In this document: positions 17,582 to 32,946 of the stretch, one piece after another
Layout: each line of letters begins with the position of its first letter
Numbering within the stretch: position 1 is the first letter of the stretch
Source of the DNA: a virus
Lineage: Duplodnaviria; Heunggongvirae; Uroviricota; Caudoviricetes
Virus record (IMG/VR): IMGVR_UViG_2897346870_000004
Location: 1-48,908 of that record
DNA: 48,908 nucleotides
Strand: one strand, 5' to 3'
Position numbers and translations under genes: made by a program
Notes under the pieces: generated by a model
Databases searched by the model: none
Seen by the model: only the letters and a program-made list of their open reading frames with translations
What the model was told of the DNA's origin: nothing

Positions 17582-18120
17582 TTTACCCAACAAATACAGG
17601 CAAAAGCGGGGAACACCTTCGTCTCACCACGCTGGAAAGTGTCTGGATTCAGGGAAAACTGCGCATGTGGGGGCGCTGGTCGTATATTGGCGGCGGTAAG
17701 ACGGGAAATATGTTTAACCAGTTGCTGGCATCCAAAAAATTGACGAAAACAGCCGTCAATGAAGCCCTGCGCAGGATGAAAAAAGCGGGAATAGAGAAAC
17801 CTGAGCTGGAAGCGTTTTTGCGAGAGATGATCAATGGCAAGCAAAAGACCTGGCTGGCGCATTGTACTGATGCAGAGGCGTTATGTATTGATAGAGTCAT
17901 AAGTGAGGTGCTGGCAGAGCATCCTGGATTGATTAGTGTCCTCCGGCAACGGTATGAAGGACGGGGGATGACTAAGCGCAAAATGGCTGAATTGCTAAAT
18001 GATGCACATCCTGAGTGGTGTTTTAGCACATGCGAAAAGCGAATTGCTAATTGGTTGGCTGTTGCTGAGTATGCCCTATATATTCCCATGCGAGAATCAT
18101 TTGCTCAAAAAATAGCTTGA
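17578..18120 (+). CDS. Putative late-gene antiterminator Q (phage 82-type family)
   Basis: ATGA-coupled start at 17578; LRMWGRWSYIGGG motif resembles Q82-type antiterminators as I recall them; position immediately upstream of the lysis region. Confidence 0.55.
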   Translation: MIYPTNTGKSGEHLRLTTLESVWIQGKLRMWGRWSYIGGGKTGNMFNQLLASKKLTKTAVNEALRRMKKAGIEKPELEAFLREMINGKQKTWLAHCTDAEALCIDRVISEVLAEHPGLISVLRQRYEGRGMTKRKMAELLNDAHPEWCFSTCEKRIANWLAVAEYALYIPMRESFAQKIA

Positions 18121-18204
18121 TTTTTTACGCATAAACTGCTTCAATTCCGGTATGCTTCGCAAAGCTGTATCGCGAGGCGAACCAAGCGCATGAACTTTAC
18201 CAGA

Positions 18205-18232
18205 ACCCGCCATTGAGCGGGTTTTGTTGTTT
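18205..18232 (+). terminator. tR'-like intrinsic terminator (ACCCGC-cattga-GCGGGT-TTTGTTGTTT)
   Basis: Hairpin plus T-rich tract about 85 bp downstream of the Q stop. Confidence 0.5.
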
Positions 18233-18341
18233 CTGGTACTGGCGAACCTGATGTTTCATTTCTGGAGCGCGATTCCTGGCGGAATACCTAGAATCGAGAC
18301 ATTCTGGTAAAATTGTTTTCAGTACAGGATGTGGAGGTGAG

Positions 18342-18911
18342 ATGAGAGAACTACCTAAAGATTATTTTTTAGGAGTAGATGATGAGCTCGTCGATTATCT
18401 TGAAAAACAAGGGGAAGAGACGATACGAGAGATTCATCTTTCTAACAAAACCAATGTTGAGAATGGATACAAACTTCTGAACATTCAGATTGTTGGAATT
18501 GGTTCATCTTTTTTATTGCTGACACAGAAAACTAATTTCGATTTTCTCACCGCCGGAATTACCACATTTACATTACTATGGACATGGTGCGCCATTTACT
18601 TGGTATGTACTGGTTTATCTGTGAAGGTTAGGGGCCTGATCAATGCCCCTCCTGATCATCTATATCATGAAAAATATAAGGATATGGAGCCCTCGAGCTT
18701 TAAAATATTCGCTGATGCAGGATATTTAGGACCTGATAAGTTATTGCCGCTTATACGAAGGTATCGCCTTGTTGACTTGAGTGATACAGCAAGAGAGTTA
18801 CTGTTGGAAAATGAGAAAATCCGCACGAGTCTCGATAAAGCAAGGATGTATACCATCCTTGCTCCGGTAGCGGCGATGTTTATCTCGGCTGTTTTTTTAT
18901 ATGTTCAATGA
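18342..18911 (+). CDS. Hypothetical membrane protein (189 aa) inserted between Q and holin
   Basis: Strong GGAGGTGA RBS; three hydrophobic segments (one C-terminal); AT-rich. Confidence 0.5.
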   Translation: MRELPKDYFLGVDDELVDYLEKQGEETIREIHLSNKTNVENGYKLLNIQIVGIGSSFLLLTQKTNFDFLTAGITTFTLLWTWCAIYLVCTGLSVKVRGLINAPPDHLYHEKYKDMEPSSFKIFADAGYLGPDKLLPLIRRYRLVDLSDTARELLLENEKIRTSLDKARMYTILAPVAAMFISAVFLYVQ

Positions 18912-19041
18912 CTGAGTCGGCAGAATCTCCAACAAAAACACGACGTGTAGCAAAGTCTGTAGTACTTTGTATTGGAGTTGGTTTTGGTGCCACGGGTTGC
19001 TGAGGTTTATTTTCACCTTGTGGTTTGTTTTTTTCAGACAT
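18880..19041 (-). CDS. Hypothetical small protein (53 aa), convergent and overlapping the 3' end of the membrane-protein gene
   Basis: AGAGGA RBS before ATG 19041; low-complexity Pro/Gln-rich N-terminus. Confidence 0.3.
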   Translation of the reverse strand: MSEKNKPQGENKPQQPVAPKPTPIQSTTDFATRRVFVGDSADSVIEHIKKQPR

Positions 19042-19258
19042 AAAAATCCTCTTTGTTTGAATTGTTACTTTTGGCGATTTAACGATATCAAACACGAGTA
19101 TATACCGCCAGAAGCTTAATCTGGCACTCCATCTGGCCCCGGCATGTCCCGGGGCTTTTTCGTTGTTAGGCTCCGGAAACATCCTCGACTTCTTGTTAGC
19201 AAGCCTGAGAGCCTGAATCTTACACTTAGCACCATCCGAACTCTCGGAGGTGAGGCTT

Positions 19259-19600
19259 ATGAAAATGCACAATGCCCCTCATTCCTGGCCTGACTTACTG
19301 GAACTCTTACAAAGTTGGTGGCGTGGAGATACGCCGCTGGGTGCAGTGGTTATGTCAATTATTATGGCTGGTTTGCGCATTGCCTATTTTGGCTGTGGCG
19401 GCGGCTGGAAACGAAAAACGCTTGAGATTCTGCTTTGTGGTGCTCTGACGCTGACCTTTGCATCCGCGCTTGAGTATGTCGGATGGCCTAAATCACTTTC
19501 TGTTGCCATTGGTGGTGGGGTGGGGCTGATTGGTGTTGATGCTATTCGTGGTGCGGCAATGAGGGTCATCGGTAACAAGTTCGGTGCCCATAAGGAGTAA
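19259..19600 (+). CDS. Putative class I holin with MKM dual-start motif
   Basis: GGAGGTGAGG RBS; three predicted TM segments; immediately upstream of the endolysin; lambda S-like Met-Lys-Met start. Confidence 0.65.
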   Translation: MKMHNAPHSWPDLLELLQSWWRGDTPLGAVVMSIIMAGLRIAYFGCGGGWKRKTLEILLCGALTLTFASALEYVGWPKSLSVAIGGGVGLIGVDAIRGAAMRVIGNKFGAHKE

Positions 19601-19603
19601 TTA

Positions 19604-20080
19604 ATGCAGACACTTAATTCCCAGCGTAAAGCTTTCCTTGATATGGTGGCATGGTCAGAAGGAACAGATAACGGACGGCAGAAAACCAGAAATCACGGTT
19701 ATGATGTTATTGTCGGTGGCGAACTGTTCACTGATTACTCCGATCACCCCCGCAAACTTGTCACGCTAAATCCGAAACTCAAATCAACAGCCGCTGGACG
19801 TTACCAGCTTCTTTCACGCTGGTGGGATGCCTACCGCAAGCAACTTGGCCTGAAAGATTTTTCTCCAGAAAGTCAGGATGCTGTAGCGCTGCAGCAGATT
19901 AAAGAGCGTGGCGCTTTGCCGATGATTGATCGCGGTGATATCCGTCAGGCTATCGACCGTTGCAGCAATATATGGGCTTCACTGCCGGGCGCTGGTTATG
20001 GTCAGTTCGAGCATAAGGCTGACAGTCTGATTGCAAAATTCAAAGAAGCTGGCGGAACGGTCAGAGAGATTGAGGTATGA
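19604..20080 (+). CDS. R: Endolysin (lambda R-type lytic transglycosylase)
   Basis: [47 protein letters not shown] matches recalled lambda R almost throughout. Confidence 0.9.
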
Positions 20081-20541
20081 GCAGAGTAACCGCGATTATC
20101 TCCGCTCTGGTTATCTGCATCGTCGTCTGCCTGTCATGGGCTGTTAATCATTACCGTGATAACGCCATTACCTACAAAGCCCAGCGCGACAAAAATGCCA
20201 GAGAACTGAAGCTGGCGAACGCGGCAATTACTGACATGCAGATGCGTCAGCGTGATGTTGCTGCGCTCGATGCAAAATACACGAAGGAGTTAGCTGATGC
20301 GAAAGCTGAAAATGATGCTCTGCGTGATGATGTTGCCGCTGGTCGTCGTCGGTTGCACATCAAAGCAGTCTGTCAGTCAGTGCGTGAAGCCACCACCGCC
20401 TCCGGCGTGGATAATGCAGCCTCCCCCCGACTGGCAGACACCGCTGAACGGGATTATTTCACCCTCCGGGAACGACTGGTAATGATGCAGGCCCAACTTG
20501 AAGGTGCTCAGCAATACATAACCGAGCAGTGTTTAAAGTAA
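20077..20541 (+). CDS. Rz: i-spanin Rz
   Basis: [55 protein letters not shown] matches recalled lambda Rz. Confidence 0.9.
20297..20482 (+). CDS. Rz1: o-spanin Rz1 (lipoprotein, embedded in the +1 frame of Rz)
   Basis: Lipobox LVVVGC followed by a Pro-rich segment; entirely inside Rz. Confidence 0.85.
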
Positions 20542-20678
20542 AATCTTAACTACAATATGATTCATTTTGATGATTGTTTCATAAGGAACAGTGAAGTAAG
20601 ATCTAAGAGGAGTTAAATTTTATACAGTATAATCATAATATTGCAGCAAGGTGGTTATAATTGAAAGAATATTTAGAT

Positions 20679-22136
20679 ATGAATACATCTCATGTAAGAG
20701 TTGTTACTCATATGTGTGGGTTCTTGGTTTGGCTCTATAGTCTTTCAATGTTGCCACCAATGGTTGTAGCATTGTTTTATAAAGAAAAAAGCCTGTTCGT
20801 TTTCTTTATAACTTTCGTTATATTTTTTTGCATTGGTGGCGGAGCGTGGTATACAACTAAGAAATCTGGCATTCAATTACGTACCCGTGATGGGTTTATT
20901 ATAATTGTAATGTTTTGGATTTTGTTTTCTGTTATTAGTGCATTCCCTTTATGGATTGACTCAGAACTTAATTTAACGTTCATTGATGCTCTGTTTGAAG
21001 GGGTTTCTGGAATAACAACAACAGGAGCAACTGTAATTGATGATGTTAGTTCATTACCTCGGGCATATTTGTACTATCGGTCACAGTTAAATTTTATAGG
21101 TGGTTTAGGAGTTATTGTTCTGGCGGTTGCAGTATTGCCATTATTGGGTATTGGTGGTGCAAAGCTTTATCAGTCAGAAATGCCGGGGCCATTTAAGGAT
21201 GACAAACTCACTCCCCGCCTGGCCGATACGTCACGGACACTGTGGATAACTTATTCTTTATTAGGTATTGCTTGTATTGTCTGTTATAGACTTGCAGGAA
21301 TGCCTTTGTTTGATGCTATTTGTCACGGGATTTCCACAGTTTCGCTTGGTGGTTTCTCAACTCATAGCGAGAGTATCGGATATTTTAATAACTATTTGGT
21401 TGAGCTGGTGGCTGGTTCTTTTTCCCTGCTATCGGCTTTCAACTTCACTCTTTGGTATATTGTTATTAGCAGAAAAACGATAAAACCTTTAATCAGAGAT
21501 ATTGAACTTCGTTTCTTTCTGTTAATAGCCTTAGGGGTGATCATTGTTACCTCTTTCCAGGTCTGGCATATAGGTATGTATGACTTGCATGGAAGTTTTA
21601 TTCATTCGTTTTTTCTTGCCAGCTCCATGCTCACTGATAATGGTTTAGCTACGCAGGATTATGCAAACTGGCCCACGCACACGATAGTGTTTTTGCTGTT
21701 GTCAAGTTTCTTTGGGGGATGTATAGGTTCAACCTGTGGTGGAATTAAGTCACTTCGATTTCTTATACTTTTCAAACAAAGCAAACACGAGATAAATCAG
21801 CTTTCTCATCCCAGAGCGTTGTTGAGTGTAAATGTAGGAGGGAAGATAGTTACAGATCGTGTAATGAGGTCTGTATGGAGTTTCTTTTTTCTTTATACTC
21901 TCTTCACGGTGTTTTTTATACTGGTGTTAAATGGTATGGGATATGATTTTCTTACATCATTTGCAACAGTGGCTGCATGTATTAATAATATGGGATTAGG
22001 TTTTGGGGCTACTGCATCGTCATTCGGAGTGCTTAATGACATTGCAAAATATTTAATGTGCATAGCTATGATTCTTGGTCGCCTTGAAATTTATCCTGTT
22101 ATTATATTGTTTTCAGGTTTTTTTTGGCGCTCCTAA
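20679..22136 (+). CDS. trkG: Potassium uptake protein TrkG
   Basis: MNTSHVRVVTHMCGFLVWLYSLSMLPPMVVALFYKEKSLF matches recalled Rac TrkG; polytopic membrane protein; AT-rich. Confidence 0.9.
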   Translation: MNTSHVRVVTHMCGFLVWLYSLSMLPPMVVALFYKEKSLFVFFITFVIFFCIGGGAWYTTKKSGIQLRTRDGFIIIVMFWILFSVISAFPLWIDSELNLTFIDALFEGVSGITTTGATVIDDVSSLPRAYLYYRSQLNFIGGLGVIVLAVAVLPLLGIGGAKLYQSEMPGPFKDDKLTPRLADTSRTLWITYSLLGIACIVCYRLAGMPLFDAICHGISTVSLGGFSTHSESIGYFNNYLVELVAGSFSLLSAFNFTLWYIVISRKTIKPLIRDIELRFFLLIALGVIIVTSFQVWHIGMYDLHGSFIHSFFLASSMLTDNGLATQDYANWPTHTIVFLLLSSFFGGCIGSTCGGIKSLRFLILFKQSKHEINQLSHPRALLSVNVGGKIVTDRVMRSVWSFFFLYTLFTVFFILVLNGMGYDFLTSFATVAACINNMGLGFGATASSFGVLNDIAKYLMCIAMILGRLEIYPVIILFSGFFWRS

Positions 22137-22273
22137 TATATGGCTGATTTATAATTGTGAGTTTAATATTATGTTGACTCACTCATTGATCCAATACCTA
22201 ACTTTACCAGCAACACCTCCGCCCCCAGTAGCACTGGCTGCTGGGGTGCGTTTTATTCATAAAGCAAGGCTGT

Positions 22274-23065
22274 ATGAGCGAGAAATTAAAGATAGTCTAT
22301 CGCCCATTACAAGAATTGTCACCGTATGCGCACAACGCCAGGACGCACAGCCCTGAGCAGGTGGCACAACTGGTAGAAAGTATTAAGCAATTCGGCTGGA
22401 CTAATCCGGTGCTGATTGACGAAAAGGGCGAAATTATTGCGGGTCACGGTCGTGTTATGGCGGCTGAAATGCTCAAAATGGATTCTGTTCCGGTCATTGT
22501 TCTGTCTGGCCTGACGGATGAGCAGAAAAAGGCGTACCGCCTGGCAGATAATCGCCTGCCGATGAATGCTGGCTGGGATGAAGATCTGTTGCGGATGGAG
22601 CTGTCGGACCTAATCAATGCTGATTTTGATGTCTCCCTGACAGGCTTCATCCCGACAGAAATTGATGAACTGTTGACGGATGTTTTGCCCGGTACAGGAA
22701 ATGAGGAGGAGCCGTATACGACGAAAATTGATACGCCTGTTTATGAGCCGTCGGGCGGTAAACCGGATATCAGTGAACTGTACGACGATACGAAAACTCA
22801 GGAGCTGATCAGCCGGATACGTTCGGCGTCCCTTGAGCCTGATATTGAGAAATTCCTCCTGTGTGCGGCAGAACGTCACACGGTGTTTAATTTCAGCAGA
22901 ATTGCGGACTATTACGCTCACGCCCCCGCTGAAATTCAGTGTTTTTTCGAGGAGTCGGCGCTGGTGATCATTGATTATCAGCAGGCTATTGAAAATGGAT
23001 TTGTCCGGATGACGCAGCGCATGGTGGAGATCATGCATGGTGGTGAGGAGGAGGAATATGCGTGA
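22274..23065 (+). CDS. ParB-like nuclease-domain protein
   Basis: N-terminal ParB/Srx-like block LIDEKGEIIAGHGRVMAAEML ... KKAYRLADNRL; C-terminal about 160 aa unassigned. Confidence 0.7.
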   Translation: MSEKLKIVYRPLQELSPYAHNARTHSPEQVAQLVESIKQFGWTNPVLIDEKGEIIAGHGRVMAAEMLKMDSVPVIVLSGLTDEQKKAYRLADNRLPMNAGWDEDLLRMELSDLINADFDVSLTGFIPTEIDELLTDVLPGTGNEEEPYTTKIDTPVYEPSGGKPDISELYDDTKTQELISRIRSASLEPDIEKFLLCAAERHTVFNFSRIADYYAHAPAEIQCFFEESALVIIDYQQAIENGFVRMTQRMVEIMHGGEEEEYA

Positions 23066-23990
23066 TGATTTTTGCGCCTTTATTCTGACTCACGGGCGAC
23101 CAGACAAAGTTCTGACTTACCGGACGTTGCGTCGTGCTGGCTATACCGGGAAAATTTTTATCGTTGTTGATGATGAAGATAAGACACGGCATCAGTACAT
23201 GGCTGAATTTGGTGAACAGGTGCTGGTGTTTTCCAAAGCCGATATCGCCAGTCGTTTTGACGAAGCCGATAATTTCTGTGACCGCCGCTCAATTTTTTAC
23301 GCCCGTAATGCCTGTTTTGACCTGGCAAAACTGGTCGGGTGTAAATACTTCATTCAGCTCGATGATGATTATCACGAGTTCCAGTTTCGGGTGGATCGCA
23401 ACTATGACCAGGCCTATTTTCCGATAAGGAAACTGGATGCGATCCTTTCTGAAATGCTGGCGTACTACGAATCAATACCTGCTCTTTCCATCGCTATGTC
23501 GCAGGGCGGGGATTTTCTTGGTGACAATGGCGGCCATGCTTCGTGGGTGAAACGCAAGGCAATGAACAGCTTTATCTGTTCGGTTGATCGACCGTTCTCA
23601 TTCATGGGGCGCATTAACGAGGATGTGAATACGTACACGAATCTCGGTCGCTGTGGTGAATTGTTTATGACGATCGGTGCTGTCCAGTTAGGGCAGAAAC
23701 AGACGCAGAAAAACAGCGGCGGAATGACCGAGCTGTATCTGGATTCCGGAACCTACGTTAAAAGTTTTTACTCCGTCATGTATGCGCCGTCGTGCGTAAA
23801 AATTTCACTGATGGGTGCCAGCCATAAACGCATTCACCATCAGGTCACCTGGAACAACGCTGCAGTAAAAATCCTTCACGAAAAATACAGGAAGAAGACA
23901 CCCTGCATATCAATGGGGGTGACAAATGATTCCGTATTCGAAAGTCGAGTCTCTGGCAGCGTGCCGGATGACTGCACAACAAATCGCTGA
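23058..23990 (+). CDS. Hypothetical protein (about 310 aa), coupled to the ParB-like gene
   Basis: GAGGAGGAG RBS; start overlaps the upstream stop by 8 nt; acidic IVVDDEDK and QLDDDYHEF segments; function unknown. Confidence 0.5.
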   Translation: MRDDFCAFILTHGRPDKVLTYRTLRRAGYTGKIFIVVDDEDKTRHQYMAEFGEQVLVFSKADIASRFDEADNFCDRRSIFYARNACFDLAKLVGCKYFIQLDDDYHEFQFRVDRNYDQAYFPIRKLDAILSEMLAYYESIPALSIAMSQGGDFLGDNGGHASWVKRKAMNSFICSVDRPFSFMGRINEDVNTYTNLGRCGELFMTIGAVQLGQKQTQKNSGGMTELYLDSGTYVKSFYSVMYAPSCVKISLMGASHKRIHHQVTWNNAAVKILHEKYRKKTPCISMGVTNDSVFESRVSGSVPDDCTTNR

Positions 23991-24177
23991 CGTTCTGGAT
24001 GTTGATCTGAACCGACTGAAAGAAAATCGGGAAGCAATGACAGATTTTTATGCGGCCATCCGTAAGGGCAGAGCGAAAGGTGAAGCCGAGTTACGAGCGG
24101 CATTGTTTAAGCTTGCCAGAAAAGGGGATGCCTTTGCTCTGCGCGAACTACTCAGGGTGGATAAAAATCAGGACTAA
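23926..24177 (+). CDS. Small putative DNA-binding protein upstream of terminase
   Basis: GGGGGTGA RBS; MTAQQIADVLDVDLNRLKENREAM HTH-like segment; overlaps the preceding gene by 65 nt, start uncertain. Confidence 0.4.
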   Translation: MIPYSKVESLAACRMTAQQIADVLDVDLNRLKENREAMTDFYAAIRKGRAKGEAELRAALFKLARKGDAFALRELLRVDKNQD

Positions 24178-24180
24178 CTG

Positions 24181-25275
24181 ATGAGCAGACCGGACTGGGG
24201 GGCGTTGCAGCAGGAGTATATTGCTGAATACACCCGCTCCGGTATATCTCCGGTGGCATGGTGTGAAGCAAGGGGACTGAATTACGCAACAGCCCGTCGT
24301 TACATCAAAAAAACTCCGAAAAATGCGCAGACAGAAATGCGCAAAACTGCGCAAAAAAGTGCGCAGAAAAAATCTGCGCAGACTGCACAAAAGCGGAACG
24401 AAAAATCTCAGGAAAAAAAGCCAGTATTCGATGCGGGCCTGAATGAGGGCGACGCGGAGGAATTTTCGTTCTGTCCCGATGAATTCGGCATTTCTGACCA
24501 GCAGGCTAAGTTTGCGATGCTTGTTGCTCAGGGTAAAAAGCCGACAGAGGCGTACCGACTAGCCGGTTATGAGGGGCAAGGTGCGACAGCTAACAGCAAC
24601 GCCAGTCGTATGCTTAGAAATGCCAGGGTTTTTCGCGCTATCAGCTACTTCCGCAATCAGTACCAGAAACGCTATACCGCAGACCTGGATTTACTAGTGA
24701 GTCAGTTGATGGCCATTGTCCTGGCCGACCCCAATCAGCTTGCACAATTTCGCCGTGTTAACTGCCGTTATTGCTGGGGCGAGAATCATCTCTACCAGTG
24801 GCGCGATATAGCAGAATTCGACAAGGCAGCGGCGCAGGCTTCCAGAGATGGCAAACCCGAACCGGAATATGGAGGCCTCGGCTTTGTTGATAACGCCATA
24901 CCCAATCCGGACTGCCCGAAGTGCTGCGGTGAGGGAACGGGACAGCTTTATATGGCTGATACCACTCTGCTTGATGGGGATGCGCGGCAATTATATGCAG
25001 GGGCAAAATTCGGAAAATTCGGCGTTGAGATCCTGCTGGAGGATAAGGCTGCCGCCCGGCGTGAATTGTTGCGTTTGCTTTCTGCTGGCGGGGCTTTATG
25101 TGCAGATAAGCGGCTACAGGAACTGGAAATTGAACGGCGCAGAATGGAAAACCAGAAGCTGCGCAAAGAGATCGAAACGGTGGAAGATAATGAACATCCC
25201 CAGCCTGTGGCGATCAATATTAATGTGGTTGATGCCAGAGTAAGGAGTGATGAAGATGATCTCTCCGACGCTTAA
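24181..25275 (+). CDS. Terminase small subunit
   Basis: FGISDQQAKFAMLVAQGKKPTEAYRLAGYEG motif as I recall it from small terminases; precedes the large subunit. Confidence 0.65.
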   Translation: MSRPDWGALQQEYIAEYTRSGISPVAWCEARGLNYATARRYIKKTPKNAQTEMRKTAQKSAQKKSAQTAQKRNEKSQEKKPVFDAGLNEGDAEEFSFCPDEFGISDQQAKFAMLVAQGKKPTEAYRLAGYEGQGATANSNASRMLRNARVFRAISYFRNQYQKRYTADLDLLVSQLMAIVLADPNQLAQFRRVNCRYCWGENHLYQWRDIAEFDKAAAQASRDGKPEPEYGGLGFVDNAIPNPDCPKCCGEGTGQLYMADTTLLDGDARQLYAGAKFGKFGVEILLEDKAAARRELLRLLSAGGALCADKRLQELEIERRRMENQKLRKEIETVEDNEHPQPVAININVVDARVRSDEDDLSDA

Positions 25276-26557
25276 TGTGCCTCAGGCGCGATTTCTTTCA
25301 ATGCCCCATAAATTTAAAGCCTATATTGCTGGTTTTGGCTCGGGCAAAACATGGGTTGGGTGTGGCGGCATATGCAAGGGGATTTGGGAGCATCCAGGTA
25401 TAAATCAGGGATATTTTGCGCCAACGTATCCCCAAATTCGCGATATTTTTTACCCTACAGTGGAAGAAGTTGCTGCTGACTGGGGATTGAACGTAAAAAT
25501 TAATGAGGGAAATAAAGAGGTTCACTTTTATTACGGACGCCAGTATCGGGGAACCACTATCTGCAGATCGATGGAGAAGCCACAAACGATCGTCGGTTTC
25601 AAAATTGGTAATGCGTTGGTGGATGAACTGGACATTTTGCCGAAGGAAAAAGCCAGAACGGCGTGGCGCAAGATAATTGCACGTATGCGTTATAAGATTG
25701 ATGGACTTCGCAACGGTATTGACGTTACAACCACGCCGGAAGGATTCAAATTTGTCTACGAGCAGTTTGTTAAAGCCGTGCGTGAAAAAACAGAGCTGGC
25801 CTCACTGTATGGTCTGGTGCAGGCATCTACTTTCGATAATGAAAAGAACCTGCCAGCAGATTACATTCCTTCGCTTCTTGAATCATACCCTCCAGAGCTG
25901 ATTAAAGCCTATCTGCGAGGACAGTTTACTAACCTGACAAGTGGTACTGTTTACCATCAGTTTGACCGGAAACTGAATAATTGCGAAGAAGTGGAGCAGC
26001 CAGGGGAGCCGATTTATATTGGGATGGATTTTAACGTTGGAAAGATGGCGGGAATCGTCCATGTGCTGCGTTTGGGGCTTCCATGTGCGGTAACTGAAAT
26101 CATCAATGCCTACGATACGCCGGATATGATCCGCATCATTAAAGAACGCTTCTGGCTGTATGATGGGAATGATTACCGGAAAGTGAGGGAAATTTATATT
26201 TATCCAGATGCTTCCGGGGATTCCAGAAAATCAAGTAACGCAAGTACGACGGATATAGCCCAGCTTAAGCAGGCTGGTTTTAACGTTGTGGTGAACAGCT
26301 CGAACCCGCCAGTAAAAGATCGCGTTAACTCAATGAATGCAATGTTCTGCAATGCCAATGGTGAGCGTCGCTATAAAGTTAATGTGAAGCGTTGCCCGTT
26401 ATATGCCGAATCTCTGGAGCAACAGGTCTGGGATGAGAAGGGGGAGCCTGATAAAAAATCTGGCAATGATCACCCGAATGATGCCGGAGGTTATTTCATC
26501 GTTAAGCAATTCCCTATTGTCAAACCGACCGGAAGAGTCACATCACTTCGGATTTAA
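25247..26557 (+). CDS. Terminase large subunit
   Basis: Walker A AGFGSGKT near the N-terminus; C-terminal nuclease-like region; followed by portal. Confidence 0.85.
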   Translation: MMKMISPTLNVPQARFLSMPHKFKAYIAGFGSGKTWVGCGGICKGIWEHPGINQGYFAPTYPQIRDIFYPTVEEVAADWGLNVKINEGNKEVHFYYGRQYRGTTICRSMEKPQTIVGFKIGNALVDELDILPKEKARTAWRKIIARMRYKIDGLRNGIDVTTTPEGFKFVYEQFVKAVREKTELASLYGLVQASTFDNEKNLPADYIPSLLESYPPELIKAYLRGQFTNLTSGTVYHQFDRKLNNCEEVEQPGEPIYIGMDFNVGKMAGIVHVLRLGLPCAVTEIINAYDTPDMIRIIKERFWLYDGNDYRKVREIYIYPDASGDSRKSSNASTTDIAQLKQAGFNVVVNSSNPPVKDRVNSMNAMFCNANGERRYKVNVKRCPLYAESLEQQVWDEKGEPDKKSGNDHPNDAGGYFIVKQFPIVKPTGRVTSLRI

Positions 26558-26559
26558 TT

Positions 26560-27966
26560 ATGGCTGATATATCAACACCCAACCTCGACTATAACGATAT
26601 GCTGGAGGCGTGGGATATTAACGACGCACTGATGGGCGGTACGCTTGAAATGCGCAGGCAGGGGGAAAATTATCTCCCAAAATGGCCTAACGAAGATGAA
26701 GACGCTTATAAAAAACGCCTGTCTGTGGCTACGCTACTTCCTGTGTATGAAGAAAGCATCAAGCAAAATATTGGGCGCATATTTGCAGAGCCGACAGTAT
26801 TGAGTGAGGAAACGCCGGCAAAAATCAGGGAATATGCAGAAAATATCGACATGGAGGGGAGCCGACTGGATGTGTGGGCGCAGCAATTTTTCAGCCTCGC
26901 ATTTCAGTATGGTGTGGCACATGCGCTGGTGGACTATCCACGAACGGATATGAAAGAGATTCGGACAAAAGCCGATGAAAACGCGACCGGTGGTCGTCCG
27001 TACGTTACGATGCTGAATCCACGCCAGGTTATTGGATGGAAATCGAAAGTTGAAAAAGGGAAAGTTGTTCTCACTGATTTGCGTATAAAAGAGGTCATCA
27101 TTATTGATGGTGATGATTTCGGGCAGAAGAAGGTGGAGCAGATCCGCCATATTATGCCCCGTCGAGTTGAAATTTATCGACGTAGCGAAGGCACTAATGG
27201 CGAATCTGTCTGGACGCTTCATGAGTCATGGAATACCAGCCGTGATGATATTCCTCTGGTAACACTGTACACGAAGAAAACAGGATTTATGCGTGGTACA
27301 CCGCCATTGCTTAATCTTGGCTTGCTGAATATCAAGCACTGGCAAAGCCAGAGCGAGCAGGACAATATTCTTCATGTTGCCCGCGTTCCATTGCTGGTGG
27401 CCTACGGGCTGGACAGGAATGAAGAACTGACGGTTGGTGCATCCACCGCTACGATTTTTGAGGACAGAACAAAAAATGGCCTCGAATATGTTGAACATAG
27501 TGGCGCAGCGATAGAATCTGGCGAAACATCACTTGAGAAGCTGGAAAATCAGATGCGTCATGCCGGCGCTAAACTTCTGCGTGCTGAAAATACATCCACC
27601 AAATCTGTTGATCAGACTAATGAAGAGCGAATGCAGGAAAACTCGCCGCTTTATACAATGGCGAACTCCCTCGAAGATGCTCTCGATAATATTCTCCAGA
27701 TAATGGCGGAATGGATCGGAGAGAGTTGCGGTGGCAATGTGGATGTGCGCACTGAACTGGATGTATCTGCCCAGGTGTTTGACTCATCCTCCGCGCTGGC
27801 TGTTCAGTCATTGCGTCAGGGCGGTGATATACGTCAGATTGATGCGGTTCGGGTGTTGCAGGCGTTGAAATTTATCGATCAGGATTCCCGTCCAGAGGAA
27901 GTGATCGATGAATTAAAAAATCAGAGTGTAATGCTGATGGAAATCAATGATGCAAACCGTGAATGA
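26560..27966 (+). CDS. Portal protein
   Basis: 468-aa ORF immediately after the terminase large subunit. Confidence 0.7.
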   Translation: MADISTPNLDYNDMLEAWDINDALMGGTLEMRRQGENYLPKWPNEDEDAYKKRLSVATLLPVYEESIKQNIGRIFAEPTVLSEETPAKIREYAENIDMEGSRLDVWAQQFFSLAFQYGVAHALVDYPRTDMKEIRTKADENATGGRPYVTMLNPRQVIGWKSKVEKGKVVLTDLRIKEVIIIDGDDFGQKKVEQIRHIMPRRVEIYRRSEGTNGESVWTLHESWNTSRDDIPLVTLYTKKTGFMRGTPPLLNLGLLNIKHWQSQSEQDNILHVARVPLLVAYGLDRNEELTVGASTATIFEDRTKNGLEYVEHSGAAIESGETSLEKLENQMRHAGAKLLRAENTSTKSVDQTNEERMQENSPLYTMANSLEDALDNILQIMAEWIGESCGGNVDVRTELDVSAQVFDSSSALAVQSLRQGGDIRQIDAVRVLQALKFIDQDSRPEEVIDELKNQSVMLMEINDANRE

Positions 27967-29062
27967 ACGGCTGCGTGATGAATCAATTGCTCATGCAGTC
28001 TGGATATCCCGCTATAGCACTGGCGTGGCTGCCAGAATGGTGAAAATACTGAATGACAGCGATGCGGAACTTACTGCTCGCCTGCTGATAGCACTGGACA
28101 GCCTCGATCCAGGTAATTTTACCGTTAAGCGCCTGGAGTCACTTCTGGCGAGCGTCAGAGAGGTTAACCGCACTGCTATTAACAGCATGTTTACCAGTCT
28201 CTCCGGAGAGCTGAACGAGCTGGCAATTTATGAGGCTGGTTATCAGTTAAGTCTGTTTGATTCTATGCTACCTGATTTTGTTGCTGATGTTCACCCTCTG
28301 GTTGGTATCTCTCCTGATGCACTTTATGCCGCTGCAATGGCGCGACCATTCCAGGGACGACTGCTCAGTGAGTGGGCCTCAGATCTTGAGGCGGATCGGC
28401 TCAGACGCATAACAAATACAGTGCGTCAGGGTTTTTTGCTGGGGGATACCAATGAGCAGATCGCAAGAAAAATTCGGGGACATGTCAGTAAGGGATTTCA
28501 GGATGGTGCATTGCAGATGAGCCGGGCTAATGCGGCCAGCATTGCAAAAACAGCGGTTGGACATCTTGCTGCTACTGCCCGTGAGAGTTTTGCCAGCGCG
28601 AATAATGATTTGATTAAGGGTAAGCAATGGTTATCAACGCTTGATAATCGTACTACGCCACAATGTCGAATCAGGGATCGCCTCAAATATACGCTGAATA
28701 ATAAACCTGTAGGTCACAGCGTGCCTTATTTGCAGGGGCCGGGAAAAATTCATTTCTGCTGCCGCTCAACGGAAACGTTCATTCTGAAATCAGCGAAGGA
28801 ACTGGGTATTGATGTTCGCGATATTTCCCCGGCTGAGCGGGCCAGCATGGATGGCGTGGTGGCCGGAGATACAACCTACAGGGAATGGTTTTTGCGTCAG
28901 CCTTACACCAGACAAAAACAGATTGTGGGGGAAACCCGAGCAAAGCTGATTCGGGATGGTGGTATGTCGCCAGATGAATTTTACACCGATAAAGGCGAAT
29001 GGCTGACGCTGAAGCAGCTCCGTGAGCGTGATGCACAGGTATTCAGAAAAGCAGGGATTTAA
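27947..29062 (+). CDS. Head morphogenesis protein (Mu F / SPP1 gp7-like)
   Basis: Position after portal; family call from recollection. Confidence 0.65.
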   Translation: MMQTVNERLRDESIAHAVWISRYSTGVAARMVKILNDSDAELTARLLIALDSLDPGNFTVKRLESLLASVREVNRTAINSMFTSLSGELNELAIYEAGYQLSLFDSMLPDFVADVHPLVGISPDALYAAAMARPFQGRLLSEWASDLEADRLRRITNTVRQGFLLGDTNEQIARKIRGHVSKGFQDGALQMSRANAASIAKTAVGHLAATARESFASANNDLIKGKQWLSTLDNRTTPQCRIRDRLKYTLNNKPVGHSVPYLQGPGKIHFCCRSTETFILKSAKELGIDVRDISPAERASMDGVVAGDTTYREWFLRQPYTRQKQIVGETRAKLIRDGGMSPDEFYTDKGEWLTLKQLRERDAQVFRKAGI

Positions 29063-29166
29063 ATAAATCATTTATTACAACAGGCTACCTTCGGGTGGCC
29101 TTTTTTATTGCTGCGATCCGGATGGTGAGCAGCGTAACTGTCGGAAGACTTAAACCAGGTACTAAT

Positions 29167-29931
29167 ATGAAACTGAAAACGGTCGAGATTAACGGAAAAC
29201 AATACGCAGAAATTGATACTGCTGGCCTGCCAGTTTATGTGCACGACGATGGTAAAGAAATTGGCTTCGATGCACCGCTGGCGACAAAAAAAATTACAGA
29301 GCTTAATGGCGAGGCAAAAAATCATCGCCTGGCTAAAGAAGCTGCAGAGGAAAAACTGGCTAAGTTTGCCGCTATCGAAGACCCGAAGAAGGCGATCGAG
29401 GCACTGGAAATGCTGTCAAAAATCGACCAGAAAAAGCTGCTCGATGCGGGACAGGTTGACCAGGTTAAGGCAGAAATTACGAAAAATTTTCAGCAGCAAT
29501 TAGATGAAGAAAAGCAACGCTCTCAGATGCTGGAGAAGCAGCTTTACGATTCTATGATTGGCGGTAGTTTTGCGGGTTCAAAATATATTGCCGATAAAAT
29601 TGCGATCCCGGCAGATTTATTACAAGCCCGCTTCGGGCAGGCATTCAAAGTGGAAGAAGGGAGGATCGTTGCTTATGACGCTTCCGGCAACAAAATTTAT
29701 TCCCGCGCGAAGCCTGGCGAACTGGCGCAGTTTGATGAGGCGCTGGAGTTCCTTGTCGAAAATTACCCTCAGAAAGACTACATCCTGAAAGCCAGTGGCA
29801 ACAATGGCGGCGGCTCCCGTCCGACACAGCATGATATTGGTCAGAAAACGATGAAACGCTCTGCTTTTGATGCACTGGATGTTGCAGGTAAGCAAAACGC
29901 ATTGAAAGACGGTATCACAATCGTTGATTAA
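29167..29931 (+). CDS. Putative scaffolding protein
   Basis: Helical, charged protein between head-morphogenesis and capsid genes; start at ATG 29167. Confidence 0.5.
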   Translation: MKLKTVEINGKQYAEIDTAGLPVYVHDDGKEIGFDAPLATKKITELNGEAKNHRLAKEAAEEKLAKFAAIEDPKKAIEALEMLSKIDQKKLLDAGQVDQVKAEITKNFQQQLDEEKQRSQMLEKQLYDSMIGGSFAGSKYIADKIAIPADLLQARFGQAFKVEEGRIVAYDASGNKIYSRAKPGELAQFDEALEFLVENYPQKDYILKASGNNGGGSRPTQHDIGQKTMKRSAFDALDVAGKQNALKDGITIVD

Positions 29932-30029
29932 CACATTTGTCAGCTTCCGGATGGGAGCTGGTGTCAGGGCTGGATAGCTCATTACTCCATCTATTCACAA
30001 TTACGCAAATTTTTAAGGAATATTTAATT

Positions 30030-31169
30030 ATGGCTGGAAATACCCTGACCGGGTTGATCCCGACTATTTATACCGCCCTGGATGTTGTATCCCGTGAGCA
30101 GGTAGGTTTTATCCCTGCGGTAGCAAAAAACGCAAAAGCTGACGCCGCAGCAAAAGATCAGACGGTAACCGCGCCAGTTGCGCCTGAGGCGAAAACCGAA
30201 GATATCGTACCGGGGCCGTCAGCTCCGAATACCGGTGATCAAAATATTGGCACTGTTGATGTAAAAATTACTAAATCCAAAATGGCACCGGTTAAATGGA
30301 ATGGTGAAGAACAACTGGCTCTTGGCCCTTCAGGGACTTACAACACCATTCTGGCTGATCAGTTCAAGCAGGCTTTTCGCGCCCTTGCAAACGAGGTTGA
30401 GGCTGATCTTGGTGCGTTGTATTTCGGTGCTTCCCGCGCCGTGGGAACCGCAGGGACAACGCCGTTTGGTGTTAAAGATGATCTTTCTGATGCTGCTCTG
30501 GCTCGTCAGGTTCTGGAGGATAACGGCGCACCGACAACCGATCTGCAGATGGTGCTTGGCTCCACTGCCATTGCTAATTTGCGCGGAAAACAGTCTGTAT
30601 TGTTTAAAGTGAATGAATCCGGCACTGAACAGCTACTGCGTGAGGGCGTGTTGGGGCGTCTGGAGGGATTCAATATTCACAGTTCGGCAGGTGTGAAACG
30701 AGCGCCAAAGGTTGCTGCAACTGGTTATCTCGTGAATGGAGAGAAAAAAGAAGGCGATGTTCTTATTTCCATTGATACTGGTTCGGGGAGTATTTCTGCA
30801 GGTCAGATTGTTACGTTCGCTGGTGATCCGAATCAGTATGTTGTGGCAGCAGCGACCAGCAATCTGATTACTCTTGCAGCGCCCGGACTGCGTCAGGATC
30901 TGGCCGATGATACTGCCATCACAGTTGTTGGGGCCTTTACTGCAAATATGGCGTTTGATCGCAACGCGTTTCTGCTGGCATCCCGTACTCCGGCAATGCC
31001 GGAAGGTGGCGATAATGCTGATGATGTAATGAATGTTACGGACCCGATTTCAGGGATTACGTTCCAGATTGCACTGTATCGTCAGTATCGCCAGGTGCGC
31101 TATGAAGTTGGACTGGCATGGGGTGTTTCATCAGTGAAGCCGGCACATGGTTGTCTGATTCTTGGTTAA
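30030..31169 (+). CDS. Major capsid protein
   Basis: AAGGAA RBS; 379-aa ORF followed by a hairpin terminator, the usual arrangement after a major capsid gene. Confidence 0.65.
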   Translation: MAGNTLTGLIPTIYTALDVVSREQVGFIPAVAKNAKADAAAKDQTVTAPVAPEAKTEDIVPGPSAPNTGDQNIGTVDVKITKSKMAPVKWNGEEQLALGPSGTYNTILADQFKQAFRALANEVEADLGALYFGASRAVGTAGTTPFGVKDDLSDAALARQVLEDNGAPTTDLQMVLGSTAIANLRGKQSVLFKVNESGTEQLLREGVLGRLEGFNIHSSAGVKRAPKVAATGYLVNGEKKEGDVLISIDTGSGSISAGQIVTFAGDPNQYVVAAATSNLITLAAPGLRQDLADDTAITVVGAFTANMAFDRNAFLLASRTPAMPEGGDNADDVMNVTDPISGITFQIALYRQYRQVRYEVGLAWGVSSVKPAHGCLILG

Positions 31170-31179
31170 ACATTCAAAC

Positions 31180-31200
31180 GGGGCTTCGGCCCCATTTTTA
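31180..31200 (+). terminator. Hairpin GGGGC-TTCG-GCCCC followed by ATTTTTA
   Basis: Direct reading immediately after the capsid gene stop. Confidence 0.5.
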
Positions 31201-31211
31201 ATGGAGGGCAT

Positions 31212-31388
31212 ATGGCCGGATTAACTAAAGAGCAAAGAGCACAGCGTGAAGCCGCACAAAAAACGCAAATTGAGTTAGTGGTTATGGTGACCGATTATCA
31301 GATGTTTCCCGGCGCACCAACTATCGCTAATGTTCATCCTGATGAAGTTGACAACTGGAAGGCTATGGGCTGGAAAACTCAGGAGTAA
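31212..31388 (+). CDS. Hypothetical small protein (58 aa)
   Basis: GGAGGG RBS; MAGLTKEQRAQREAAQKTQIELVVMVTDYQ; below the ORF-track cutoff. Confidence 0.35.
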   Translation: MAGLTKEQRAQREAAQKTQIELVVMVTDYQMFPGAPTIANVHPDEVDNWKAMGWKTQE

Positions 31389-31391
31389 CAC

Positions 31392-31787: not shown

Positions 31788-31981
31788 TGGGGCTTCGTGA
31801 AGAGATTCAGTCAGAGGTTGCCGCTGCTTTTGATGAGGATTTAGCGGACGCCGTGAGTGATTTTTCTGGTTCTTACGTTACGCACCGGCACTGGGATCCT
31901 GTGACGGAAACTGGCGGCGAATCCACGGTGATGCTGCCAACTTACTGATTTAGTGTATGATGGTGTTTTTGAGGTGCTCCA

Positions 31982-32679: not shown

Positions 32680-32946
32680 GTTGGAGTCATTACCGAATCC
32701 ACCGCAATCTATACCGGGCGAGGCGTGTTGACACGTTATAAGCTGGGCAGAATTGATGGGATTAATATTTTGCATGGTGACCTTAAATTAACCGCTCTGG
32801 TATGCGAGGTTACGGATAAACCCGCTGTCGACCATATTATTGAGATTTATGATCCTGTATTAAGGCAGTTACAACGATACGAGGTAATTACAGCGAGTGT
32901 AGATCCTTCCGCATCAGTTTACTCTATCCAGTTAAGGAGAGCGTAA

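What the first reader, a model, noticed from the sequence alone, without database searches (positions are those of the whole stretch)
22274..23990. ParB-like nuclease-domain protein coupled to an unassigned 310-aa protein upstream of terminase
Seen: the N-terminus of the 263-aa protein has a ParB/Srx-like block. The next gene overlaps its stop by 8 nt and has a strong RBS. Its protein carries acidic IVVDDEDK and QLDDDYHEF segments that could be nucleotide- or metal-binding, but I cannot place it in a family. Inference: coupled ParB-like plus unknown-enzyme pairs next to terminases can act in DNA packaging, DNA modification or anti-defence; which, if any, applies here is open.
Basis: partly seen in the sequence, partly recalled or inferred. 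Interest (0 to 1): 0.45.

Follow-up and report, generated by a model that had tools for sequence, protein, structure and literature searches.

The report
Prophage ParB-like activator plus orphan glycosyltransferase
The unassigned 310-aa protein is a sugar-transferring enzyme of a family whose phage and trypanosome members glycosylate DNA; it is welded to a ParB-like partner in a two-gene module found in phages of many phyla, but no gene here makes the hydroxymethylated base such enzymes normally need, so its target is open.

Summary
ORF 22274-23065 (263 aa) has a ParB/Srx N-terminal domain. ORF 23058-23990 (310 aa) overlaps its stop by 8 nt behind a strong Shine-Dalgarno run. The second protein can be placed: it is a GT-A glycosyltransferase of Pfam family TAGT (TET-associated glycosyltransferase, E 3.8e-35).

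The window is a Rac-type lambdoid prophage of E. coli. The pair sits in the late operon between the trkG moron and the terminase genes.

The pairing is conserved: 80/80 viral loci and 77/77 species-level genome loci across many phyla carry the partner upstream of the TAGT. The most conserved part of the partner is an undescribed C-terminal domain of about 115 aa, which also occurs as a separate protein beside TAGT.

No hydroxymethylpyrimidine-making enzyme was found in the ORFs scanned in the window, in two annotated relatives of the prophage, or in the 31.8-kb phage c5.

Best reading (about 0.5): a late-expressed, two-component DNA glycosylation module. The ParB-like protein would act as activator or tether for the transferase, as shown in 2026 for ParB-dependent thymine dioxygenases. 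The acceptor is unknown.

The parts
22223..22246 (+). Terminator-like hairpin with T tail ending the trkG moron, 28 nt before the ParB-like start
   Evidence: Pattern scan: 10-pair stem, 7 G-C pairs. A consensus match only. It implies the pair is reached by read-through of the late transcript.
22274..22678 (+). ParB-like protein, N-terminal nucleotide-binding (ParB/Srx) domain plus short helical segment (residues 1-135). GHGR (57-60) replaces the canonical GERR.
   Evidence: Pfam ParB_N 1.2e-6. Profile against PDB: Noc/ParB 3e-5, with IIAGHGR aligned to IIAGERR. Foldseek of the AF2 model: M. xanthus ParB-CDP, Noc, KorB at 1e-6. N21, G57 and N93 are invariant in 58 diverse homologues.
22679..22783 (+). 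Predicted disordered linker (residues 136-170) holding the invariant motif Y148-T-x-K-I-x-x-P155-x-Y157-E-P
   Evidence: AF2 pLDDT below 50 for residues 136-170. Y148, P155 and Y157 are invariant in 58 sequences from many phyla.
22784..23065 (+). C-terminal helical domain (residues about 171-255) plus acidic tail and stop codon. This is the part most tightly linked to the glycosyltransferase and has no Pfam model.
   Evidence: L195, R201, A211, Y214, E226, L230 and D234 are invariant. The domain occurs as a stand-alone protein of about 130 aa beside TAGT. 1402 cluster representatives at E<=1e-3.
23045..23056 (+). Shine-Dalgarno run GAGGAGGAGGAA for the glycosyltransferase, lying inside the end of the ParB-like gene
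   Evidence: Read directly from the sequence.
23058..23990 (+). TAGT-family GT-A glycosyltransferase, 310 aa. Motifs: R14; D38-D-E-D-K42 (nt 23169-23183); DxD D102-D104 (nt 23361-23369); E188-D189 (nt 23619-23624); R258-x-H-H261. The last ~22 residues are an E. coli-specific tail overlapping the next ORF.
   Evidence: Pfam TAGT 3.8e-35. phrog_842 7e-104. AF2 model with GT-A matches SpsA, ColGalT1 and SunS. Viral TAGT models 4e-25. Invariant residues and start codon.
23968..24177 (+). Small ORF (69 aa from ATG 23968; 83 aa from 23926) between the glycosyltransferase and TerS. Context only.
   Evidence: phrog_309 (terminase small subunit, positions 145-218) 8e-23. No Pfam hit. RefSeq CDS 23968-24177.
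24181..26557 (+). Terminase small (24181-25275) and large (25247/25256-26557) subunits. Conserved downstream context of the pair.
   Evidence: Terminase_2 1.4e-8; Terminase_6N 3.7e-33; Terminase_6C 3.4e-10.

Best explanation
This is a late-expressed, two-component glycosylation module that most likely acts on phage DNA after replication and before packaging.

The 310-aa protein is the catalyst. It is a metal-dependent GT-A enzyme that would take a sugar from a UDP/NDP-sugar.

The 263-aa protein is its obligate partner. It has a ParB-type nucleotide-binding domain, a disordered linker with an invariant Y..K...P.YEP motif, and a conserved C-terminal domain. It has no DNA-binding domain of its own and is strongly acidic.

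I infer that the basic transferase docks on the linker motif and C-terminal domain, so that it supplies the DNA-binding surface. The ParB-like dimer would then hold or activate it on double-stranded DNA. This is how ParB-like proteins were shown in 2026 to activate cognate phage thymine dioxygenases.

Shown here: the family and fold of both proteins, the catalytic motifs, translational coupling, the cross-phylum pairing, and the absence of a recognisable hydroxymethylpyrimidine source.

Inferred: physical interaction, DNA as the substrate, the nucleotide dependence, and the biological payoff (protection from restriction or other defences). The acceptor atom is unknown.
For: Catalyst:
- Pfam TAGT 122 bits.
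- GT-A fold.
- The R...DDD...ED motif that bioRxiv 2023.12.21.572611 defines for DNA-modifying phage GT-A enzymes is present and invariant: R14, D102-104, E188-D189.
- Characterised phage and trypanosome relatives act on DNA: T2/T6 beta-glucosyl-HMC-alpha-GT (PMC13216743), phage 5hmC glycosyltransferases and JGT (bioRxiv 2023.12.21.572611).

Partner:
- ParB nucleotide-binding fold, closest to MxParB, Noc and KorB.
- Architecture of NBD, short helices, ~35-aa disordered linker and CTD, with no HTH. This is the architecture described for the 5mYOX-activating ParBs in PMC13229309.
- Conserved N21-x-R23, S36 and R60 have about the same spacing as N14, R16, S29 and R56 of ParB176 in that paper.

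Obligate pairing:
- 80/80 viral loci and 77/77 genome loci, 74 of them abutting.
- These span Proteobacteria, Bacteroidota, Firmicutes, Verrucomicrobiota, an archaeal MAG, halovirus HHTV-2 and Lactobacillus phage c5.
- Charge is complementary: transferase median pI 8.67, partner 4.58.

Link to DNA metabolism:
- Stand-alone CTD plus TAGT sit among DnaB, primase, PolA, sliding clamp, RecA and clamp-loader genes in 76-145 kb phage contigs.
- The NBD is the kind fused to phage DNA methyltransferases (phrog_498 1e-50; PADLOC MTase_II 2.5e-38).

Real sugar chemistry:
- Neighbours include UDP-galactopyranose mutase, a second TAGT, radical-SAM enzymes, and an NDP-sugar epimerase with a nucleotidyltransferase.

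Timing:
- The pair lies in the late operon just before TerS and TerL, ahead of several different terminase families.
Against: - The family members with a shown DNA activity glycosylate a hydroxyl on 5-hydroxymethylpyrimidine, or on a sugar already attached to one.
- No TET/JBP dioxygenase or thymidylate-synthase-like hydroxymethylase was found in the window ORFs scanned, in the RefSeq annotation of two close prophages, in the annotation of the complete 31.8-kb phage c5 with two of its larger unknown ORFs scanned, or recurrently among 300 flanking genes of diverse loci.
- Canonical DNA offers no hydroxyl on its bases.
- One family member, GREB1, glycosylates a protein (PMC7968844).
- In PMC13229309, mutating NTP-binding residues did not abolish ParB function, so the clamp picture is unproven even for the model system.
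- The AF2 model of the C-terminal domain has low confidence, and no complex was modelled.
Confidence: 0.5

Rival explanations
1. The transferase glycosylates a protein, not DNA. The acceptor could be the partner itself (the invariant Tyr/Thr/Lys motif in its disordered linker), or a host or virion protein. The ParB-like protein would be substrate or adaptor.
For: - GREB1, a TAGT-family member, O-GlcNAcylates ER-alpha (PMC7968844).
- The closest solved folds include peptide and protein glycosyltransferases: SunS/ThuS, GalNAc-T2, ColGalT1, and the self-glucosylating glycogenin.
- No hydroxylated base source was found.
- The partner carries an invariant Y148/P155/Y157 motif in a disordered stretch, is very acidic, and has no DNA-binding domain.
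- SPASM-type radical-SAM enzymes, often peptide modifiers, adjoin the pair in five loci.
Against: - The pair is embedded in replication modules beside a sliding clamp in large phages.
- The NBD is of the type fused to DNA methyltransferases.
- The transferase is basic in 90% of lineages.
- The fold hits are generic GT-A similarities with TM 0.3-0.45.
- The phage relatives with a shown activity act on DNA.
Confidence: 0.17
2. The module needs a hydroxymethylated base made by a component not recognised here. Candidates are a very divergent dioxygenase or hydroxymethylase elsewhere in the phage or host, or hydroxymethylated DNA of another phage. In that case it is an ordinary second step of a known hypermodification pathway.
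For: - Every phage TAGT with a demonstrated activity uses 5hmC, or glucosyl-5hmC (PMC13216743; bioRxiv 2023.12.21.572611); the trypanosome relative JGT uses 5hmU.
- PMC13229309 reports thousands of 5mYOX-like sequences that the Pfam TET/JBP model misses.
- The window has unassigned ORFs, for example 13535-14947 (471 aa), with no Pfam or PADLOC hit.
Against: - Phage c5 has only one unassigned ORF long enough (208 aa), and it has no Pfam hit at E<=0.1.
- The variable unknown ORFs of the Rac-type prophage are not conserved with the pair: strains H1 and SW07099 differ there.
- No recurrent third gene accompanies the pair in 77 diverse loci.
Confidence: 0.13
3. The pair is a DNA-packaging accessory. 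The ParB-like protein would mark or organise the pac/cos region for terminase, and the transferase-like protein would have a structural or regulatory role rather than a catalytic one.
For: - The pair lies immediately upstream of TerS and TerL in most small-phage loci, regardless of terminase family.
- In phage c5 the pair is the first two genes after the cos site.
- Aravind and co-workers suggested that ParB proteins direct modification machinery to DNA during packaging (as cited in PMC8256090).
Against: - The catalytic residues are invariant across phyla, so catalysis is under selection.
- Sugar-nucleotide genes are recruited next to the pair.
- The pair occurs away from any terminase, in replication modules and about 3 kb upstream of TerL in HHTV-2.
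- The partner lacks a DNA-binding domain.
Confidence: 0.05

Closest known systems
ParB-dependent phage thymine dioxygenases (5mYOX176/ParB176; O'Toole et al., PNAS 2026, PMC13229309)
   Same: - A phage ParB-like protein with NBD, short helical segment, disordered linker and CTD, and no DNA-binding domain, encoded next to a DNA-modifying enzyme.
- The closest structures are MxParB and related ParBs.
- Similar spacing of the N-x-R, S and R nucleotide-binding residues.
- Frequent terminase neighbours.
   Different: - The cognate enzyme here is a GT-A glycosyltransferase, not a 2-oxoglutarate dioxygenase, and no dioxygenase is present.
- I could not compare the C-terminal domains because the paper's sequences are not held.
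- The C-terminal domain here also exists as a separate small protein.
T2/T6 beta-glucosyl-HMC-alpha-glucosyltransferase and the phage 5hmC GT-A glycosyltransferases (Pfam TAGT, PF20691)
   Same: - Same Pfam family and GT-A fold.
- Same R...DDD...ED active-site pattern.
- Phage-encoded.
- Structural match to the PKO111 enzyme at 9e-8.
   Different: - Those enzymes act on glucosyl-5hmC or 5hmC made by a dCMP hydroxymethylase plus alpha/beta-GT, or by a methyltransferase plus TET. None of these is present here.
- tblastn at 1e-5 does not reach T-even phages.
- This clade is defined by its ParB/CTD partner.
- The PHROG label 'beta-glucosyl-HMC-alpha-glucosyltransferase' is therefore a family name, not a function, for this protein.
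ParB-domain/DNA-methyltransferase fusion proteins of prophages (phrog_498; PADLOC MTase_II)
   Same: - The same kind of ParB N-terminal domain (1e-50 and 2.5e-38) coupled to a DNA-modifying enzyme.
- Enriched in prophages (PMC12704722).
   Different: The coupling here is by a separate gene and a dedicated C-terminal domain, not by fusion. The enzyme is a glycosyltransferase.
Chromosome/plasmid partition ParB, Noc, KorB
   Same: [quoted passage not shown]
   Different: - No HTH or parS-binding domain.
- No parA.
- GHGR in place of GERR.
- pI 4.5.
- Encoded in a late phage operon.
- It is not a partition protein, despite the 'partitioning protein' labels in phage records.

Membership tests
TAGT / TET-associated glycosyltransferase (Pfam PF20691) | Sequence match to the family model above the curated cut-off | tested here: met
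   122.1 bits against a cut-off of 27.5, residues 15-229 covering model positions 4-205 of 205. Precomputed PF20691 on all 120 listed homologues.
TAGT / TET-associated glycosyltransferase (Pfam PF20691) | GT-A fold with the R...DDD...ED(Y/F) active-site motifs | tested here: met
   AF2 model with pLDDT above 90 over most of residues 1-150. Foldseek matches SpsA, ColGalT1, SunS/ThuS and GalNAc-T2 and viral TAGT models at 4e-25. R14, D102-D104 and E188-D189 are invariant; the residue after ED is V190 rather than Y/F. Motif definition taken from bioRxiv 2023.12.21.572611.
TAGT / TET-associated glycosyltransferase (Pfam PF20691) | Genomic association with a source of 5-hydroxymethylpyrimidine (TET/JBP-type dioxygenase, or thymidylate-synthase-like hydroxymethylase) | tested here: not met
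   None was found in the window ORFs scanned, in the RefSeq annotation of two relatives, or in the annotation of the 31.8-kb phage c5, where two larger unknown ORFs were also scanned. Neither family is among the 25 listed families for 150 downstream and 150 upstream neighbours. Singletons beyond the 25 shown cannot be excluded.
TAGT / TET-associated glycosyltransferase (Pfam PF20691) | Transfer of a sugar to DNA | not testable with these tools
   Needs nucleoside LC-MS or an in vitro assay.
T2/T6 beta-glucosyl-HMC-alpha-glucosyltransferase (label of phrog_842) | Acts on alpha-glucosyl-5hmC DNA; the genome also encodes dCMP hydroxymethylase and an alpha- or beta-glucosyltransferase | tested here: not met
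   No such genes in the prophage. The PHROG match (7e-104) reflects family membership only.
ParB/Srx N-terminal (CTPase-fold) domain (PF02195) | Match to the domain model and to the fold | tested here: met
   28.9 bits against a cut-off of 26.3, which is marginal. Profile against PDB: Noc/ParB 3e-5. Foldseek: MxParB-CDP 1.3e-6.
ParB/Srx N-terminal (CTPase-fold) domain (PF02195) | Box II arginine patch GERR with catalytic Glu | tested here: inconclusive
   GHGR aligns to GERR. G57 is invariant and R60 is kept in 80-90% of 58 homologues, but Glu is replaced by His. Nucleotide binding and specificity were not tested.
Partition ParB (TIGR00180) | HTH parS-binding domain, ParA partner, score above the NCBIfam cut-off | tested here: not met
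   38.4 bits against a cut-off of 58.45. No HTH domain in the Pfam scan or the model. No parA in the annotation of two close relatives of the prophage.
Activator ParB of phage DNA-modifying enzymes (PMC13229309) | Architecture of NBD, short helices, disordered linker and CTD without a DNA-binding domain | tested here: met
   AF2: helices to residue 134, pLDDT below 50 for 136-170, helical CTD 172-255.
Activator ParB of phage DNA-modifying enzymes (PMC13229309) | Encoded beside its cognate enzyme and required for that enzyme's activity on dsDNA | tested here: inconclusive
   Adjacency is met with a different enzyme class. The requirement for activity is not testable here.

The most novel reading that the evidence does not exclude
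The ParB-CTD/TAGT pair is self-sufficient and puts a sugar directly on DNA that carries no hydroxymethyl group. The acceptor would be a ring or exocyclic nitrogen of a canonical base, the backbone, or a DNA end. That would be a new DNA modification chemistry, present in about a sixth of complete E. coli genomes and in phages of many phyla. The undescribed C-terminal domain would be the universal coupling or activation module. The ParB domain, or in large phages the sliding clamp, would supply the hold on DNA.
Probability: 0.2. Interest if true: 0.85.

Novelty: new variant of a known kind. Interest (0 to 1): 0.55.

Why it matters
Two 2024-2026 papers left open what the many phage glycosyltransferases do that have no hydroxymethyl-base pathway nearby: 288 of 753 TAGT-bearing phages in PMC13216743, and about 65% of GT contigs in bioRxiv 2023.12.21.572611.

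This window places one such enzyme in a form that can be studied:
- It is intact in a Rac-type prophage of E. coli.
- The same stretch is carried at full length by 878 of 5426 complete genomes.
- It always comes with one defined partner.

That makes a two-gene expression experiment with nucleoside mass spectrometry enough to learn whether a new DNA or protein modification exists. It would also test whether ParB-like activation, so far shown only for a dioxygenase, is a general way for phages to switch on DNA-modifying enzymes. If DNA is modified, the module would affect restriction, type IV nucleases and sequencing-based methylome calls in many E. coli strains.

Tried and rejected
- **Partition protein.** Rejected: below the TIGR00180 cut-off, no HTH, no parA.
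- **Known defence system.** PADLOC gives only the methyltransferase-type ParB domain for protein 1 and nothing for protein 2.
- **Hidden dioxygenase or hydroxymethylase.** I scanned the integrase-to-lysis ORFs of the window and the larger unknown ORFs of phage c5 and found none. I also scanned unknown neighbours of the stand-alone CTD loci and found only a weak clamp match, an HTH protein and a resolvase-like PHROG.
- **Window identity.** I assumed the window was strain H1. That was wrong outside 17918-31926, so the early region was annotated directly.
- **Solved structure for TAGT by sequence.** None found.
- **Fusion of CTD to TAGT as proof of interaction.** None clear among the best 150 representatives.
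- **Other N-terminal domains fused to the CTD.** 13 of 150 have an unassigned N-terminus; one carries DUF3102. Not informative.
- **AF2 of the partner.** The C-terminal domain came out at low confidence, so no fold assignment was possible.
- **Unavailable resources.** The afdb50 library; Iyer et al. 2013; the supplement of PMC13229309.
- **Literature on ynaK or on Lactobacillus phages with the pair.** Nothing on function.
Full report
**1. What is at the coordinates**

The window is a Rac-type lambdoid prophage of E. coli. It runs from the integrase (1-1236, minus strand) through RecT/RecE and replication genes (DUF1376, DnaC-like), then the lysis genes, the trkG moron, the pair in question, terminase, head and tail genes.

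The stretch 22000-24200 is 100% identical to E. coli strain H1. It is present at 80% coverage or more in 878 of 5426 complete E. coli genomes. Outside 17918-31926 the window differs from H1, and it carries an IS1 insertion at 31927-32694.

- ORF 1 is 22274-23065, 263 aa.
- ORF 2 is 23058-23990, 310 aa. The start is fixed by homologues, which all begin MRDDF.
- The overlap is ATGCGTGA, preceded by GAGGAGGAGGAA.
- A terminator-like hairpin closes trkG 28 nt upstream of ORF 1, so the pair belongs to the late transcript that continues into TerS and TerL.

**2. The second protein is a TAGT-family GT-A glycosyltransferase**

Pfam TAGT (TET-associated glycosyltransferase, PF20691) matches at 3.8e-35 over the whole model. 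phrog_842 matches at 7e-104. Recent RefSeq annotation names the protein 'GREB1-related protein'.

An AlphaFold2 model (mean pLDDT 70, above 90 for most of the first 150 residues) has the alternating strand-helix order of a GT-A fold. In it, IVVDDEDK follows strand 32-38 and DDD follows strand 97-102. Foldseek finds:
- SpsA, ColGalT1, SunS/ThuS, GalNAc-T2 and glycogenin among solved structures;
- TAGT-domain proteins at 4e-25 among viral models, and the T4-like PKO111 beta-glucosyl-HMC-alpha-glucosyltransferase at 9e-8.

R14, D38, D41, D102-D104, E188-D189, R258 and H260-H261 are invariant in 23 homologues. R...DDD...ED is the active-site pattern described for DNA-modifying phage GT-A enzymes and trypanosome JGT (bioRxiv 2023.12.21.572611).

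**3. The first protein is a ParB-fold protein with an undescribed C-terminal domain**

ParB_N matches marginally in Pfam. The match is clear in profile and structure searches: Noc and ParB at 3e-5, with IIAGHGR aligned to IIAGERR, and M. xanthus ParB-CDP, Noc and KorB by Foldseek.

It is not a partition ParB. It falls below the TIGR00180 cut-off, has no HTH domain, and no parA is annotated in two close relatives of the prophage.

The model shows four parts:
- the nucleotide-binding domain and a few helices, to residue 134;
- a disordered stretch, 136-170;
- a helical C-terminal domain, 172-255;
- an acidic tail.

In 58 homologues from many phyla, the C-terminal half is better conserved than the ParB domain. 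Y148, P155, Y157, L195, R201, A211, Y214, E226, L230 and D234 are invariant. This region has no Pfam model.

A profile of the region finds 2710 proteins in the word-indexed search, and the best hits are stand-alone proteins of about 130 aa with no Pfam domain. In the exhaustive search it finds 1402 representatives at 50% identity. Of the best 150, 91 are ParB-fused, about 45 are stand-alone, and 13 have another unassigned N-terminus.

**4. The two genes form a conserved module**

- In 80 of 80 IMG/VR loci the partner ends at the transferase start.
- In one-genome-per-species GTDB contigs, 77 of 77 loci with at least 400 nt upstream carry the partner. It abuts the transferase in 74. In the other 3 it lies within 2 kb (in two of them a second TAGT paralogue sits between).
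- Hosts include Enterobacterales, Bacteroidota, Veillonella, Clostridia, Kiritimatiellae, Acidobacteriota, Patescibacteria and an archaeal MAG.
- Cultured examples are Lactobacillus phages c5, LL-Ku and phi jlb1, Nocardia phage NTR1, 191-kb Vibrio phages, and the halovirus HHTV-2.
- The transferase is basic (median pI 8.67; 90% above 7). The partner is uniformly acidic (median 4.58; range 4.11-4.97).

**5. Context**

In small phages the genes after the pair are TerS, TerL and portal, drawn from several unrelated terminase families: Terminase_6N 16, Terminase_3 12, T7-type 5, GpA 3-4. In phage c5 the pair is the first two genes after the cos site.

Upstream genes are heterogeneous.

In 76-145 kb phage contigs, the stand-alone C-terminal-domain protein and TAGT lie inside the replication module: DnaB, primase, PolA, RecA, clamp loader and dUTPase. 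They are usually next to a sliding-clamp homologue.

Lineage-specific additions argue for real sugar chemistry:
- a second TAGT (L130, L147, L136, L167);
- UDP-galactopyranose mutase (L135);
- radical-SAM/SPASM enzymes (L130, L131, L142, and by size and position L144 and L150);
- an NDP-sugar epimerase with a nucleotidyltransferase, the epimerase placed in L102.

**6. What is missing**

TAGT enzymes with a shown DNA activity put a sugar on the hydroxyl of 5hmC or 5hmU, or on a sugar already attached there (PMC13216743; bioRxiv 2023.12.21.572611). No TET/JBP dioxygenase or thymidylate-synthase-like hydroxymethylase turned up in any of these:
- the window ORFs scanned;
- the PGAP annotation of two related prophages;
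- the annotation of the 31.8-kb phage c5, whose only unassigned ORF above 200 aa has no Pfam hit;
- the 25 listed families for 300 neighbouring genes, where neither family appears.

The literature recognises this class without explaining it: 288 of 753 TAGT-bearing phages have a 'solitary' TAGT (PMC13216743), and about 65% of GT contigs lack a 5mYOX or ThyS neighbour (bioRxiv 2023.12.21.572611).

**7. Most likely mechanism**

The nearest experimentally grounded analogue is the ParB-dependent thymine dioxygenase system (PMC13229309). There, a phage ParB-like protein with NBD, short helices, a ~50-aa disordered linker and a CTD, but no DNA-binding domain, is required for its cognate enzyme to act on double-stranded DNA. 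Both NBD and CTD are needed. Structure predictions place the enzyme between NBD and CTD, where partition ParBs carry their DNA-binding domain.

The protein here has the same layout, the same closest structures, and conserved N21-x-R23, S36 and R60 at about the spacing of ParB176 N14, R16, S29 and R56.

I therefore propose the following, all of it inference:
- The basic transferase docks on the invariant linker motif and C-terminal domain of an acidic partner dimer.
- The transferase provides the DNA contact.
- The ParB domain keeps or activates it on replicated DNA late in infection, before packaging. In large phages the neighbouring sliding clamp may do this job.

Shown: families, folds, motifs, coupling, co-occurrence, charge complementarity, context. 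Inferred: the interaction, DNA as substrate, nucleotide dependence, and benefit against host nucleases. Confidence is about 0.5 because the acceptor problem is unsolved.

**8. Rivals**

- A protein acceptor (0.17). GREB1, a TAGT relative, O-GlcNAcylates a protein (PMC7968844). The invariant tyrosines in a disordered stretch of the partner recall glycogenin-type self-glycosylation. SPASM radical-SAM neighbours are often peptide modifiers.
- A missing first step supplied by an unrecognised enzyme (0.13).
- A packaging accessory without catalysis (0.05). Invariant catalytic residues and the terminase-free contexts contradict this.

**9. Novelty**

Both families are known, and ParB genes near phage glycosyltransferases have been noted in passing. 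I did not find the following in the papers available:
- the strict, cross-phylum two-gene module;
- the finding that its conserved core is an unannotated C-terminal domain that can stand alone;
- the consistent lack of a hydroxymethyl-base source.

I file it as a new variant of a known kind. The most novel reading not excluded is direct glycosylation of canonical DNA.

Noticed in passing
window 20661-22136 (+), hairpin 22223-22246: trkG (TrkH-family potassium transporter, E 1e-144) sits as a moron between the lysis cassette and the ParB-like gene. It is followed by its own terminator-like hairpin.
   Followed up: partly
window 31927-32694: A 768-bp IS1 copy interrupts the head-tail gene region relative to strains H1 and SW07099. 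This copy of the prophage is therefore probably defective, although the ParB/TAGT pair is intact.
   Followed up: partly
window 13049-14950 (+), in a low-GC stretch (about 38-39% GC at 13-17 kb): A '4-fold beta flower' protein (135 aa, Pfam Bflower 2e-26) is followed by a 471-aa protein with no Pfam or PADLOC hit (phrog_27609, unknown function). This looks like a variable cargo island between the replication and Nin-type genes. Strains H1 and SW07099 carry different genes there.
   Followed up: partly
window 23926/23968-24177 and 24181-25275 (+): A 69-83 aa ORF matches only the middle of a small-terminase PHROG (phrog_309, positions 145-218). It precedes an unusually long TerS (364 aa). This may be a split or two-part small terminase.
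   Followed up: no
window 23922-23990: The E. coli transferase has a ~22-residue C-terminal tail that is absent from homologues of 60-83% identity and has low model confidence. It overlaps the next ORF.
   Followed up: no
L130 7160-9816; L147 641-2331; L167 8498-10211; L136 6794-8906: Some lineages carry two TAGT paralogues in tandem with the partner. This suggests stepwise building of a di-sugar, as in the sequential-GT clusters of Pyle et al.
   Followed up: partly
L130 8830-9816; L131 2695-3627; L142 8864-9835 (L144 and L150 by size and position): A radical-SAM enzyme (a SPASM domain was detected in L131) lies directly after the transferase and before TerS in several Firmicutes prophages. 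Its substrate (sugar, DNA or peptide) is unknown and could bear on the acceptor question.
   Followed up: partly
L135 3340-4527; L102 5581-7244: UDP-galactopyranose mutase (E 1.7e-73) follows the pair in a Pseudobdellovibrionaceae contig. In a Virgibacillus plasmid an NDP-sugar epimerase-like gene (5581-6516, placed by a motif search) precedes the pair, and the next ORF (6516-7244) may be the nucleotidyltransferase seen in the family tally. This points to unusual donor sugars.
   Followed up: partly
L165 6335-9265; L167 6598-10211; L156, L158, L136, L141: Where the C-terminal domain is a separate ~130-aa protein, a sliding-clamp (DNA_pol3_beta-like) gene is adjacent or within a few genes of it. 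These loci seem to belong to a few lineages of large phages. This may be an alternative way of holding the transferase on DNA.
   Followed up: partly
window 39000-45000: GC content rises to 54-58% over the tail-tip gene J region, against 43-49% elsewhere. This is a mosaic boundary typical of lambdoid tail genes.
   Followed up: no
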